A DNA stretch of 64,000 nucleotides from Syntrophales bacterium. GTDB lineage: Bacteria; Desulfobacterota; Syntrophia; Syntrophales; UBA2210. Positions within the stretch are counted from its first letter, which is position 1. Each line of letters begins with the position of its first letter. The stretch lies in NCBI GenBank assembly GCA_963662405.2, contig CAXXKT010000001.1:288001-352000 (forward strand). Reading direction: 5' to 3'. This document shows, piece by piece, positions 27,001 through 30,000 of this stretch. The position numbers were made by a program.

Positions 27001-30000
27001 TTGGTCATGGAGCGCGATGAGGAGTGGATCGTGACCAAGCGCATGAGAGATAGCCTCGGCACTCAATGAGCTCAGCTCTCGACCTTCCAGTCGAGCCCGT
27101 GCCAGAACGGCATTACGGCCTTCACTCTTGGTAAAGCCACCGGCTGTTATAATGAGTGGTTCAATGCGCTTTCGGGAATCTTCCCTCAAAGAAGAGAGAT
27201 TCTCCGGCCATAGAGGGCATACGAGCCGCCAGCGAGAGAACTCGCTATGACTATCCTTCGAAGGCGTGTGACTCCAGCTAGCGAGCTTCTCCACCAGGAA
27301 CTGCGTTTGTCCCGAACGATTGATATCTTCGACTACAAGAAGCAACGGTCGCTCGGGCGAGCAAAACGATAAAGCTGATGTAGACGGCAAAGCCAATGGC
27401 GGATGGAGTTTGCACAACGTCGTCGTAACGGCTTGATCAAGAGTTGTCGCCGAGGCGACTTCCGCATGAGATAGGATAATCCCGAATCCACCACCCTCTA
27501 TGTGCACCGCGAGTCTCCGATAGCAGGCTACCGACTTACCTAAGCCAGACCCCGCCACCAAGAACGTCACGTCACGATTCATGCTGGTTGTCAGTATAGC
27601 GTCGAGCGATCGTGAAACCCAGGCATTCGGATTGTCCGGTAGATTGTGGATCTCCAAGCTCTTCTTGGAAAGTTCATGGAGCAACTCGGTCGAGAGTTGT
27701 TCCTGGTCGATGCCCAAAAAAGAGCAGCGGATCCACTGTCCTGCGGGATTGTCAAGGAAATGGCTCAGCCTGGAGCTTGGCCACAGGTCAATCTCTAGTC
27801 CGCGATCATACCCCGCCGCCGCAACGGCACGAACCAGAGATTGGTCAGGTTCTTTGTTCGTCGTGAGGACCAGTGTTACACGCAAATTCGGTGTTCGTGT
27901 CCGCTCCTCCATCGCCAGCTCCGCTGTTTTGATGAGATCTCCGGCAGGCGCTGTAGACTGCGACTTCTTACGCGGCCTAACTTTGGATGGATCGTGCAGC
28001 CACTTCTTTTTCAGATCGTTTCGGGCGGTGGTCGTGTGGTGAACAGCTATCATATGTGGTGGATCGGCACCCGGCACAAAGCAGATTCCATCTAAGGGTG
28101 CCTTTACCGTCTTGCCAGCGACGTTCACACCTGTATGAGCTAACGAGTGGTAGGTCTGATTCGCTTCACGTAAGATCGCCGTCGCAAAGCGCTCAAAAAG
28201 TCCTTCATCGGTGATATTTGACAGGGCTTGTTGAGTTCTCTCTGCGCTCATAACGTGTTTCAAGCTTACAGGAATCCATATTTGTGGTTGAATGATATAT
28301 ACTCCGCTATTCCGTATATCATCAATTTCAGAACGACACAAAAATTTCTTGGTTCAGGGAACAGTCAGATACTTCACTGCATGTTTCTACCCTTATTCAA
28401 TAATCTGGCCAGAAACCCGACCTATACCTTTGTATTTGAAGTCTTTCATACCTTCGATTATGCGAGTTCCAAGGAGTACAGGAAGGAGCAGATAATCTAC
28501 ATGAACCTAGAATGTGCAGCCCGAGTTGTGCATCTTTCAACCCGCATTCGATAAGGTTGGCTGACGAATTGTGGTGCTGACTTGTATTTGTAGTCAATAA
28601 ATGTGGGAAATGGATTCGCGGCTTGGCTTGCAATCCGTACTGTTCAGGCAGGATAAAGGAAAATGCCAGAGTGTCGGTTATTGACGCCACCTACTAACAA
28701 GCAAAATTCTCTCACAATTAAAACGATGATTACCGATTGAAAGCCTCACGGTAAAATCTCTTGACAATACATAATCATAGAGTTAACTAAATAGCGGTTT
28801 TGATCTTGATTTTTTCTGTTTGTAAACGGCTGTAACCTAGAGGGGATTATGGTCTTATCACCAAAGCCCTGTTTCTCACAAAGAGAGATGGGGCTTTTGT
28901 ATCTTGTGGCAAACCGGAAAGAAAGAGATTTTCACAATGAACAAATCCAGAATTCATGCTCATTACACATTTATATTAACCGTAATCTTTCTGATTGTAC
29001 TGGGCATAGGTATTACTAGGGGAGGCAATGCAGCGACGATTGATGTTTATGTAAAAAACGTCAATGGTGCTTATGTACAAAATGCGTCTGTAAAGCTCTA
29101 CAATGTTTCTTGGGTGCCGCTTGCAACAAAGAGAGAGGTGGTCGGGTTTCTTTGGACAGGTAACAGGGATTTATAAGTGGGAAGTTGCCCTGTGTTTGTG
29201 TTCATGCCGCAGCCTGTCCCTGTGGTAGTGACTCAAAATAAACCATAGCCGGTGTCTTCCTGTCAAAAGTATTGTGCCACCGTTTCTCGTTGTAGAATTG
29301 AAAGTAGTCGGTAAGCCCTTTCTTCAACTCTTTCATTGAACCGTATGCATTCAGATAGATATCTTCGTACTTGACGCTCTTCCAGAGCCGTTCGATAAAG
29401 ACATTATCCATCCATCGACCCTTACCATCCATGCTGATGGAGATGTCATGAGAGCGAAGGACATCAGTGAATGCCTCTGAGGTAAACTGACTGCCCTGAT
29501 CGGTGTTGAAAATATCCGGGCACCCATACGTGGAGAGAGCTTCTTCCAAAGCATCCACACAAAACGCACTGTCCAACGTATTCGACAGCCGCCAGGAGAG
29601 GACCATCCGACTCGCCCAGTCCATAACGGCTACCAGATAACAGAACCCTCGTTCCATGGGAATATACGTGATATCGGCAGACCATACGTGGTTGGGACGG
29701 ATGATATCAAGTCCCCGTAACAGATACGGATATATCGGGTGCTGGGGATGCTTTATCGATAATCTCGGCTTGATGTACAACGCCTCGATCCCCATGCGAC
29801 GCATCAACCGACGTACCTTATCACGTCCGATATCATACCCTCTCTGCCACAGCTCATTGCGAATCTTCCGACTCCCATAGAAGGGATACTGAAGATGAAT
29901 CTCATCGATCTGACGCATCAGCTCCAGATCCTTCGTGCTGACTGGAACCGGGGTGTAGTACACACTCGATCGGGACAGTTCCAAGAGTTCGCATTGACGG

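What a model noticed while it worked through the whole genome (the two positions that open the first line are those of the whole stretch)
28652..28915. Sixty-copy leader cassette: exposed ribosome-binding site and two-codon mini-orf abutting an intrinsic terminator, upstr [...]
The genome carries about 60 copies (61 by nhmmer, 52 by a covariance model) of a 200-250 nt non-coding cassette that is not in Rfam. Each copy has an invariant -35-like hexamer, then about 110 nt ending in an exposed Shine-Dalgarno sequence, a start codon, one sense codon (mostly valine) and an opal stop, and, 8-9 nt after the stop, a 12-15 bp intrinsic terminator with a uridine tract. 52 of 61 copies lie co-oriented 30-250 nt upstream of a gene, mostly defence, signalling and island genes, several directly after trna genes. 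It is read as a modular, mobile leader or attenuator in which a ribosome on the mini-orf would cover the 5' arm of the terminator and let transcription run on.
Evidence so far: nhmmer over genome.fa: 61 copies, 52 co-oriented with the next gene; covariance model R1 finds 52 in G000. Alignments show the conserved hexamer, ribosome-binding site, mini-orf and terminator; the scan tool calls terminators in both copies tested. Terminator helix: 94% of cells paired, 7 of 12 pairs with compensatory changes, 0 of 500 shuffles as high. Mini-orf: start codon in 36 of 37 own copies, two-codon orf in 30 of 36; in 36 copies from other genomes a start codon in 32 and an orf of 2-3 codons in 28, with other sense codons and ochre instead of opal stops, while start, stop and distance to the stem are kept. 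The ribosome-binding site is accessible: at least 6 of its 8 nt are paired in [...]
(Added by a program. Inside this text positions count along the whole contig: contig position 288,001 is position 1 of the stretch shown here. "Call 12" and the like, gene names such as g00115 and contig names such as C1 are that model's own, and its searches are not shown. The text may have been shortened before it was handed on; [...] marks where a part breaks off. The agent that wrote the report below was given it as the finding of a first reader that could run no searches.)

Follow-up and report, generated by a model that had tools for sequence, protein, structure and literature searches.

The report
Portable promoter, mini-ORF and terminator cassette
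About sixty copies of a 200-base module, made of a strong promoter, a ribosome landing site with a two-codon reading frame and a transcription stop signal, sit in front of unrelated, mostly acquired genes in this bacterium and its relatives, and probably set or gate how much of each gene is made.

Summary
Iterative nhmmer finds 60 copies (at least 40 bits) in the 3.8-Mb genome; 53 include the terminator part. The family occurs in 18 of 24 genomes of the same taxonomic family and 1 of 16 other families of the order. Selection acts on function, not on the whole repeat. CTTGACA, a TA 17 nt later, ATG and the hairpin arms hold 1.6-2.0 bits, while the stretches between them hold 0.1-0.5.

The "weak -10" is not a weakness: 29 of 49 tRNA genes here use TTGACA-N17-TAG/TAA-type promoters. 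The hairpin pairs in 95.2% of cells. A two-codon ORF ending in TGA is present in 40 of 56 own copies and 43 of 52 foreign copies. The window copy itself has lost the stop.

The stop-to-hairpin spacing matches the E. coli ampC and pyrE attenuators. A ribosome-gated attenuator is therefore plausible, but it is untested because no RNA data exist. The "exposed" ribosome site and the claimed variety of stop codons are not supported.

Verdict: a real, lineage-specific, portable promoter-attenuator, a new variant of known kinds.

The parts
28688..28694 (+). CACCTAC, 5' junction core of the element; other short modules and an IS110-family element abut or insert here in other copies
   Evidence: the same heptamer precedes TACTGCTCAG/TAACA in most full-length copies; IS110 ends at ..CTAC in L001, L006, L021, L050
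28709..28759 (+). Conserved part upstream of the -35 (model columns 4-54), A/T-rich next to the -35; function unknown (UP-like or protein site)
   Evidence: about 1 bit per column; imperfect inverted symmetry with columns 69-76
28761..28766 (+). -35 hexamer TTGACA (CTTGACA 28760-28766)
   Evidence: 1.9-2.0 bits in 108 copies; same hexamer before 29 of 49 tRNA genes
28784..28789 (+). -10 position TAACTA, 17 nt after the -35; only TA is conserved; predicted start of the RNA near 28796 (inferred)
   Evidence: T 2.0, A 1.87 bits, rest 0.1-0.5; tRNA promoters of this genome read TAGGTA, TAGAAA, TAAAAG and the like
28840..28845 (+). Shine-Dalgarno-like GAGGGG
   Evidence: purine run, 1.1-1.55 bits
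28849..28857 (+). Mini-ORF site: ATG GTC TTA in this copy (family consensus ATG GTC TGA); here the stop is lost and the frame runs on to 29019
28863..28897 (+). Terminator hairpin, 15 pairs with three G-U pairs, loop ACAAA
   Evidence: terminator called; 95.2% of cells paired over 102 copies
28895..28908 (+). T tract TTTTGTATCTTGTG, 3' edge of the family model
28904..29176 (+). Downstream co-oriented ORF (90 aa, hydrophobic N-terminus), apparently the 5' end of a large surface-protein gene cut by an IS3-family element at 29202-30373 (-); the rest may be ORF 30298-34047
18370..18564 (+). Second copy in the window (157 bits), preceded by an IS110-family element, followed by an Mrr_cat restriction-type gene
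   Evidence: locus L006
11244..11420 (-). Third copy in the window (162 bits, starts at model column 20), followed by a 237-aa lipoprotein-like ORF
   Evidence: locus L005

Best explanation
The element is a portable cis-acting expression module.

1. A strong promoter of the house type (TTGACA, 17 nt, TA) fires constitutively.
2. It makes a leader RNA of about 105-110 nt that ends at a strong intrinsic terminator. The same terminator also stops transcription coming from the gene upstream.
3. Only polymerases that read through reach the downstream gene. The module therefore insulates that gene and holds it at a low level.
4. The read-through fraction is tuned by a ribosome. A Shine-Dalgarno site and an AUG load a ribosome whose two-codon frame ends 5-6 nt before the hairpin base and 8-9 nt before its first G-C pair. 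While the ribosome sits there, it hinders closure of the stem base next to the U tract. Expression then follows ribosome availability or the dwell time at the UGA stop.

Shown: the sequence features, their selective conservation, their orientation and their spread. Inferred: transcription from this promoter, termination, translation of the mini-ORF and its effect on read-through.
For: - **Selective conservation.** Promoter, ATG and hairpin columns hold 1.6-2.0 bits, against 0.1-0.5 in the spacers, over 112 distinct copies from several genera. Even copies scoring 44-90 bits keep the hairpin and T tract.
- **Promoter form.** It equals that of tRNA genes in this genome (29 of 49).
- **Hairpin.** 95.2% of cells paired. 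One-sided changes run through G-U (U-G 44, U-A 37, C-G 13 at one pair), which fits an RNA helix on this strand.
- **Orientation.** The next gene is co-oriented in 45 of 53 copies with terminator, against 39 of 60 upstream genes.
- **Short gaps.** Several downstream ORFs begin within about 55 nt of model column 200 in the T tract (for example L003 51, L033 49, L036 17, L044 26). This leaves no room for a separate promoter.
- **Cassette example.** In L002 I saw no TTGACA between the terminator and the ThsB cassette (read by eye).
- **Mini-ORF.** Present in 40 of 56 own and 43 of 52 foreign copies with fixed spacing.
- **Precedent geometry.** Read directly in E. coli: in the ampC leader, ATG TAA lies 4 nt before the hairpin; in the wild-type rph frame, TGA lies 5 nt before the pyrE attenuator hairpin. 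[quoted passage not shown]
- **Two-codon minigene.** One in the LEE1 leader is translated and affects the next gene (abstract of PMC3262186).
Against: - No transcript data exist.
- By footprint arithmetic (my inference, about 15 nt beyond the P-site codon), the ribosome covers only the three A-U pairs and at most one G-C pair.
- No alternative (antiterminator) fold is conserved.
- TGA is almost never replaced by TAA or TAG (2 of 52 foreign copies, 0 of 40 own). T of TGA (1.39 bits) is less conserved than G and A (1.59, 1.62). Base identity, not only 'a stop', is therefore under constraint.
- 16 of 56 own copies lack the two-codon frame. Five of these score 130-180 bits.
- The HD-GYP gene after lon has its own promoter downstream of the terminator, shared with orthologs that lack the leader.
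- The predicted ribosome site is not specially open.
Confidence: 0.4

Rival explanations
1. It is a fixed 'insulate and set low' cassette or a selfish mobile promoter with no conditional control. Promoter plus terminator give a constant small read-through and block upstream transcription. The start-stop frame is incidental, or only clears ribosomes and stabilises the short RNA.
For: - It fits the 'putative mobile promoter' class (PMC3575422, whole text read).
- Placement is not syntenic. Only 1 of 22 foreign downstream ORFs has a homolog behind a G000 leader.
- Orthologs of the HD-GYP and MscS genes lack the leader.
- The flanks of the MscS copy lie on different contigs in G001, G003 and G007.
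- No conserved antiterminator was found.
- Many downstream genes are potentially toxic defence genes, for which low expression makes sense (10 of the 30 ORFs scanned match PADLOC).
Against: - ATG is among the best conserved columns of the whole element (1.6-1.9 bits), and the stop-to-stem spacing is fixed. Both are hard to explain if the frame is incidental.
- No terminal inverted repeats were found, and I saw no target duplication in the flanks (by eye).
Confidence: 0.2
2. It is a target of a dedicated anti-termination factor (Q-, AlpA- or NusG-paralog-like protein, or an RNA-binding protein). The factor loads at the conserved promoter or leader and carries polymerase through the terminator, which would make the 60 genes one regulon.
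For: - The architecture equals that of phage late promoters (strong promoter, short terminated RNA, promoterless genes); this comparison is recalled.
- About 50 nt upstream of the -35 and the first 15 transcribed nt are conserved.
- An imperfect inverted symmetry has one arm between -35 and -10.
- Hairpin sequence, not only pairing, is conserved across genera.
- A second NusG-family gene exists.
Against: - The NusG paralog is found in 37 of 41 relatives, including families without the leader, so it is not linked by distribution.
- The covarying position in the symmetry follows two subfamilies and may be a single event.
- No candidate factor was identified. Q- and AlpA-type families were not searched.
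Confidence: 0.15
3. The product is the short RNA itself: a multi-copy small RNA or 'minigene' RNA acting in trans. It could act by base pairing, or by engaging ribosomes and tRNA as lambda bar minigenes do (recalled). Read-through would be a side effect.
For: - A strong promoter plus a strong terminator is the standard small-RNA gene layout.
- The 19-nt core GGATTATGGTCTGATCATC is nearly invariant.
- The two-codon frame with a good ribosome site resembles bar-type minigenes.
Against: - The orientation bias toward the downstream gene (45 of 53) is not expected for free-standing RNA genes.
- No site complementary to the core lies outside the copies at up to 2 mismatches, and only 5 at up to 3, both strands.
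- There is no conserved fold apart from the terminator.
Confidence: 0.12
4. It is mainly a DNA-level docking platform or recombination hot spot. Its conserved edges attract mobile elements and gene cassettes, and the transcription signals are secondary.
For: - IS110-family elements are inserted at CACCTAC^TAC in 4 copies.
- Short modules are joined at the same heptamer.
- attI-like sites lie 51-69 nt after the T tract in L001, L002, L004, L015 and L029, and by eye in L040.
- IS ends lie directly after the T tract in L013 and L057.
- Earlier notes e1-7687074 and e1-7687080 say the same.
Against: - Most copies have neither attI nor an insertion.
- The conservation peaks are promoter, ribosome site, start codon and RNA hairpin with G-U pairs, not the edges.
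- The attI-like site near the intact integrase has no leader.
Confidence: 0.08

Closest known systems
E. coli ampC attenuator (Jaurin et al. 1981, cited in PMC6045580; sequence read)
   Same: A promoter is followed within a short leader by a start codon and an immediate stop a few nt before an intrinsic terminator. That terminator also ends the upstream operon. Anti-termination is growth-rate dependent (passage). The proposed role of ribosome binding is recalled.
   Different: It is a single locus. The frame is ATG-TAA with no sense codon, 4 nt from an 8-bp stem. It is not repeated or portable. The element here has one sense codon, UGA and a 15-bp stem, and about 60 copies before unrelated genes.
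E. coli pyrE attenuator behind rph (sequence read; mechanism recalled)
   Same: An ORF's stop codon lies 5 nt before the terminator hairpin. A ribosome reaching that stop suppresses termination.
   Different: The ORF is a full gene (rph), coupling is set by UTP-dependent pausing, and the locus is single.
Putative mobile promoters (Nijveen, Matus-Garcia, van Passel 2012, PMC3575422, whole text read)
   Same: Highly similar upstream sequences stand in front of non-homologous genes and are shared between genera. The mobilisation route is unknown.
   Different: That class is defined only by similarity. Most families are pairs, and no promoter-mini-ORF-terminator anatomy is described there. I could not read the full NAR paper (not held).
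Two-codon minigenes in leaders (EHEC LEE1 leader, PMC3262186, abstract; axe-txe minigene, PMC8708949, search listing only; lambda bar, recalled)
   Same: A Shine-Dalgarno site, AUG, one sense codon and a stop in a 5' leader, translated and affecting the next gene.
   Different: Those act on translation of the adjacent cistron or on peptidyl-tRNA pools, not next to a terminator. They are single loci.
Promoter-bearing small repeats such as Correia elements (named in PMC3575422)
   Same: Multi-copy intergenic repeats that bring promoters and terminators to neighbouring genes.
   Different: Those have terminal inverted repeats and no orientation rule. Here no terminal inverted repeats were found, and orientation follows the downstream gene.

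Membership tests
Ribosome-gated transcription attenuator (ampC / pyrE type) | Promoter followed by a short leader upstream of the regulated gene | tested here: met
   CTTGACA-N17-TA is conserved and has the same form as 29 of 49 tRNA promoters. The next gene is co-oriented in 45 of 53 copies.
Ribosome-gated transcription attenuator (ampC / pyrE type) | Intrinsic terminator inside the leader | tested here: met
   15-bp helix, 95.2% of cells paired, 6-8 T in 47 of 52 own copies.
Ribosome-gated transcription attenuator (ampC / pyrE type) | Ribosome site and ORF whose stop lies a few nt before the hairpin | tested here: met
   40 of 56 own and 43 of 52 foreign copies; spacing 8-9 nt to the first G-C pair. 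Compare.
Ribosome-gated transcription attenuator (ampC / pyrE type) | Ribosome occupancy changes read-through | not testable with these tools
   No RNA run is listed. This needs reporters or in vitro transcription.
Ribosome-gated transcription attenuator (ampC / pyrE type) | Downstream gene depends on read-through | tested here: inconclusive
   Some genes start 17-55 nt after model column 200 in the T tract. The HD-GYP gene has its own promoter after the terminator.
Putative mobile promoter | At least 80% identity over at least 50 nt upstream of non-homologous genes | tested here: met
   blastn identities of 77-88% over 150-315 nt. Downstream Pfam families are diverse.
MITE / transposon-derived repeat | Terminal inverted repeats and target-site duplication | tested here: not met
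   Only the terminator hairpin and an internal imperfect repeat were found. No duplication was seen in the flanks (by eye).
Structured cis-regulatory RNA (riboswitch, T-box, known Rfam family) | Match to a curated model, or a covariation-supported aptamer | tested here: not met
   Best Rfam E-values are 1.8-8.7, all far below the gathering scores. No covarying helix lies upstream of the terminator.
Free-standing trans-acting small RNA gene | No positional tie to the neighbouring gene; complementary targets elsewhere | tested here: not met
   There is an orientation bias. There are 0 complementary sites outside the copies at up to 2 mismatches. Short seeds are not excluded.
Factor-dependent processive anti-termination cassette (Q, AlpA, RfaH/LoaP type) | A dedicated factor that co-occurs with the site | tested here: inconclusive
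   The NusG paralog is present but spread far wider than the element (37 of 41 against 20 of 41 genomes). Q and AlpA families were not searched.
Integron platform (Pc promoter with attI) | Adjacent to attI and the integrase | tested here: not met
   Five copies (six with L040, by eye) precede attI-like sites. The other copies do not. The site near the intact intI has no leader.

The most novel reading that the evidence does not exclude
The lineage owns a plug-in control cassette that wires its accessory genome to one shared signal, the state of the translation machinery. That accessory genome includes Thoeris-, Gabija- and PD-type defence genes, integron cassettes, c-di-GMP enzymes and surface proteins. 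A ribosome held on a two-codon UGA-terminated frame next to the terminator would raise read-through. It could be held by high ribosome supply, slow RF2 release, or translation attacked by phage or toxins. About 60 otherwise silent acquired genes would then switch on together.
Probability: 0.18. Interest if true: 0.85.

Novelty: new variant of a known kind. Interest (0 to 1): 0.6.

Why it matters
If the reading is right, a whole bacterial family solves the problem of expressing newly acquired, often toxic genes with one reusable part. That part brings a strong promoter, shields the gene from its surroundings and lets through only a ribosome-dependent trickle. It would extend the one-locus ampC and pyrE attenuators of E. 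coli into a genome-wide, portable control device. It would also give the loosely defined 'mobile promoters' a concrete anatomy. And it would offer a compact natural insulator-attenuator for engineering anaerobes. The result that tRNA promoters here read TTGACA-N17-TAG is useful by itself for annotating this poorly studied group.

Tried and rejected
- **RNA evidence.** No RNA holder is listed for window 18300-28299.
- **Rfam.** Nothing near threshold.
- **Conserved structure upstream of the terminator.** RNAalifold returned only part of the terminator. The mutual-information scan found no helix. GAUC:GAUC and GAUC:GGUC pairings show no compensatory change.
- **Antiterminator in the nascent RNA.** The 5' arm is unpaired in 24-68% of copies and has no common partner.
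- **Hidden or exposed ribosome site.** Neither holds.
- **Trans targets of the 19-nt core.** None found.
- **Empty-site comparison.**
  - HD-GYP orthologs have no lon and no PAS-GGDEF neighbour.
  - The GT2 and MscS flanks are unlinked in relatives.
  - No clean filled-versus-empty pair was therefore obtained.
- **NusG paralog as the factor.** Its distribution is too wide.
- **Integron Pc hypothesis.** Rejected.
- **MITE.** No terminal repeats.
- **Sigma-70 scan.** It calls no promoter on the + strand because it demands T at the last -10 position, which this genome's tRNA promoters also lack.
- **Literature.** Searches found no description of this element. The search terms were: Syntrophus with repeat and terminator; mini-ORF and attenuation; mobile promoters; ampC attenuator; Syntrophaceae with integron; and Syntrophus with small RNA. 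The NAR 2012 paper on promoter propagation is not held; its supplementary lists might name this family.
- **Earlier scan notes by sequence.** Nothing found.
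Full report
**What is there**

The window copy spans 28688-28908 on the + strand. Its parts, in order:
- The junction heptamer CACCTAC (28688-28694).
- About 50 conserved nt.
- CTTGACA (28760-28766).
- Seventeen nt, then TAACTA (28784-28789).
- A variable stretch.
- GAGGGG (28840-28845).
- ATG GTC TTA (28849-28857).
- A 15-bp hairpin (28863-28897, called as a terminator).
- The T tract TTTTGTATCTTGTG.

In this copy the family's TGA has become TTA, so the frame runs on for 56 codons (ORF 28849-29019). Two more copies lie in the window: 18370-18564 (+) and 11244-11420 (-).

**Is it real**

- blastn with window 28600-28960 gave 45 hits.
- Five rounds of nhmmer gave 84 rows, of which 60 score at least 40 bits on all three contigs.
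- 53 of the 60 include the terminator part and 7 are partial. Four of the partial copies keep only the promoter half.
- Rfam has nothing. The best E-values are 1.8-8.7 and the scores lie far below the gathering scores.

**Spread**

- A BLAST search of 41 related genomes (G000 included) found the element in 20. That is 7 of 7 in the genus, 18 of 24 in the family and 1 of 16 in other families of the order.
- I scanned 185,579 species genomes with a pattern that fixes only CTTGACA and part of the 5' arm.
- nhmmer confirmed 31 of these loci as copies. The other stretches gave no nhmmer match of 30 bits or more, and chance matches of that order are expected for this pattern.
- Of the 25 confirmed loci with a visible title:
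  - 10 are labelled Syntrophaceae.
  - 9 are labelled Syntrophales.
  - 1 is labelled Syntrophus sp.
  - 3 are labelled Deltaproteobacteria.
  - 1 is labelled Candidatus Theseobacter.
  - 1 is labelled 'uncultured archaeon'.

**Conservation points to function**

Over 112 distinct copies, information content is highly uneven:

| Feature | Bits per column |
|---|---|
| CTTGACA | 1.7-2.0 |
| T and A, 17 nt after the -35 | 2.0 and 1.87 |
| Rest of the -10 | 0.1-0.5 |
| Purine run (ribosome site) | 1.1-1.55 |
| ATG | 1.82, 1.87, 1.62 |
| GTC | 1.54, 1.02, 1.35 |
| TGA | 1.39, 1.59, 1.62 |
| Hairpin arms | mostly 1.3-2.0 |
| Stretches between | 0.1-0.5 |

A decaying selfish repeat would not keep exactly its transcription and translation signals. 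Even copies of 44-90 bits keep a hairpin of -9 to -23 kcal/mol. 47 of 52 own copies have 6-8 T in the next 8 nt.

**The promoter**

But this genome's own strong promoters look the same.
- The tRNA-Val gene in the window has TTCTTGACA-N17-TAGGTA.
- 29 of 49 tRNA genes carry TTGAC[AT]-N16-18-TA within 160 nt upstream. Their second hexamers read TAGGTA, TAGAAA, TAAAAG and the like.
- Of 160 CTTGACA-N17-TA sites in the genome, 45 lie in leader copies.

The leader promoter is therefore of the house type and probably strong. That is an inference.

**The hairpin**

On 102 distinct copies, the 15 pairs are formed in 95.2% of 1522 cells. Six pairs show changes on both sides. 0 of 500 shuffles reach the observed pairing or covariation score, and slid registers give 40-71%. 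Two pairs move through wobble states (U-G 44, U-A 37, C-G 13; G-U 69, G-C 14, A-U 5). This is what an RNA helix on this strand does, and the complementary strand could not do it.

**The mini-ORF**

Counts:
- A canonical start stands at the site in 52 of 56 own copies and 49 of 52 foreign copies.
- Start, one sense codon and stop are present in 40 of 56 own and 43 of 52 foreign copies.
- The stop is TGA in all 40 own two-codon copies. Among the foreign ones, one two-codon ORF ends in TAA and one three-codon ORF ends in TAA.
- Where the stop is lost, the frame often ends at a TGA in the hairpin loop (10 sense codons, 5 own copies) or runs through the hairpin.

Two points speak against a pure 'any stop' constraint. 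G and A of TGA are better kept than T. The single transition to TAA is almost never seen.

The ribosome site is not specially open. Its mean unpaired probability is 0.43, AUG 0.24, and at least 6 of 8 nt are paired in 32 of 100 copies. No conserved fold exists upstream of the terminator, and none competes with it.

**Context**

- With crude gene calls (longest non-overlapping ORFs of at least 100 aa), the next gene is co-oriented in 47 of 60 copies (45 of 53 with terminator). The upstream gene is co-oriented in 39 of 60. The median gap is 106 nt. Some 'opposite' calls are insertion sequences or likely miscalls.
- Downstream genes are unrelated to one another. They include TIR, Mrr_cat, DUF5677, AAA_15, HNH, UvrD, patatin, a protein kinase, GGDEF (2), HD-GYP (3), Lcl_C, beta-helix, MscS, a permease and an epimerase.
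- 10 of the 30 downstream ORFs that I scanned (of 60) match PADLOC models, among them ThsB, GajA, PD-Lambda-5 and PD-T4-6.
- Four copies follow tRNA genes.
- Five copies, six with L040 by eye, are followed at 51-69 nt by an attI-like site. The attI-like site near the intact integron integrase has no leader. The element is therefore not the integron's own promoter region.
- Four consecutive genes at C1 433-437.5 kb each have their own variant copy. There the stop of the upstream gene abuts the next copy, so the hairpin must also end the upstream transcript.

**Mobility**

- Placement is not conserved. Only 1 of 22 foreign downstream ORFs has a homolog behind a G000 copy. At that gene the two leaders and intergenic regions do not align outside the motifs.
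- Orthologs of the HD-GYP gene in G003, G004 and G006 lack the leader. They share with G000 a proximal promoter (CATTTGACAT-N17-TAG...) that in G000 lies downstream of the leader's terminator.
- MscS orthologs lack the leader, and the two flanks of that copy are unlinked in relatives.
- No terminal inverted repeats were found.
- The 5' edge, CACCTAC, is a junction where other short modules and an IS110-family element are joined. This agrees with earlier notes of this scan.
- How the element spreads remains open.

**Mechanism**

I commit to a portable promoter-attenuator. The promoter fires constantly. Most transcripts, and those arriving from upstream, stop at the hairpin. The small read-through fraction expresses the gene. 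A ribosome on the mini-ORF raises that fraction.

The geometry has precedents that I read directly.
- In the E. coli ampC leader, ATG TAA lies 4 nt before the hairpin.
- In the wild-type rph frame, TGA lies 5 nt before the pyrE attenuator hairpin.
- Here TGA lies 5-6 nt before the A-U base and 8-9 nt before the first G-C pair.
- A passage in PMC6045580 states that the ampC attenuator doubles as the frd terminator and gives growth-rate-dependent anti-termination.
- The ribosome-binding explanation for ampC, and the rph-pyrE coupling, are recalled.

By footprint arithmetic (inference), the ribosome reaches only the base of the stem, so the effect could be partial. Confidence that the element is a cis-acting promoter-leader-terminator module is about 0.75. 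Confidence in the full ribosome-gated version is 0.4.

**Rivals**

- A fixed insulator or selfish mobile promoter: 0.2.
- A factor-dependent anti-termination regulon: 0.15. The second NusG-family gene is too widespread to be the specific factor.
- A trans-acting or minigene RNA: 0.12. No complementary targets were found.
- A DNA docking platform: 0.08.

**Verdict**

The element is real, lineage-specific and under selection for expression signals. It combines two known ideas, ampC/pyrE-type attenuation and mobile promoters, in a multi-copy portable form that I found described nowhere in the searches. Experimental end mapping and mini-ORF mutants would settle it.

Noticed in passing
G000 genome-wide; window 51272-51330 (-) upstream of tRNA-Val: House promoters of this genome read TTGACA-N17-TAG/TAA.. 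with no conserved T at the last -10 position. 29 of 49 tRNA genes show this form. Standard sigma-70 scans will miss them.
   Followed up: yes
L001, L006 (window about 16004-18340), L021, L050: A 322-aa IS110-family transposase element is inserted four times at the same point, CACCTAC^TACTGCTCAG, at the 5' edge of the leader. Its outward end carries TTGACA.
   Followed up: partly
L002, L028, L029, L038, L039, L041, L048; window 28440-28694: There is a mosaic of short repeated modules upstream of leaders. Module A is about 75 nt (CAGGAAGAA..GCGCAGCAAAA..CACCTAC). Module B is about 160 nt and ends in GTTTATTGGTGTCACCTAC. They are joined at repeats of CACCTAC, as if by site-specific insertion.
   Followed up: partly
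window 28904-34047: An IS3-family element (orfA 30029-30373, orfB 29202-30032, - strand) appears to split a large surface-protein gene (CARDB and Ig-like domains). The 5' end of that gene follows the window leader.
   Followed up: partly
G000 C1 433080-437517 (L009-L012): Four consecutive genes (lipoprotein, epimerase, amino-acid permease, membrane protein) are each preceded by a divergent variant of the leader. ATGGTCTGA is kept but the flanks and stem sequence differ.
   Followed up: partly
L020, L028, L048, L050: Four copies keep only the promoter half and end just after the -10. They are 'promoter-only' versions joined to other sequence.
   Followed up: no
L024, L038, L041, L045, L049, 40-90 nt after the T tract: A recurrent inverted repeat GTATTATACA..TGTATAATAC with flanking GGG/CCCC lies between leader and gene in five copies. 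A third recurrent motif, AATTAATACGGGAAGTG.CCC, occurs in L009, L010, L030, L039 and L040. Their nature is unknown.
   Followed up: no
model columns 18-25 and 69-76 (window 28723-28730 and 28774-28781): An imperfect inverted symmetry TCnAT(G/T)AT .. AT(C/A)ATnGA brackets the -35. One position pair is G:C in 15 and T:A in 14 of 66 copies, but it tracks the two subfamilies. It could be an operator.
   Followed up: partly
G000 whole genome: CTAG occurs at 0.06 of the expected frequency and GATC at 2.1 times the expected frequency.
   Followed up: no
G000 C1:1449233-1449733: A second NusG-family gene (NGN plus KOW, 167 aa) lies next to ribD. It is conserved in 37 of 41 related genomes.
   Followed up: partly
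G000 C1:30608-31553 (-) and C1:2211990-2212934 (+): There is one broken and one intact integron integrase gene. attI-like sites without a leader lie at C1 131268, 1955915 and 2214374, and at C2 54182.
   Followed up: partly
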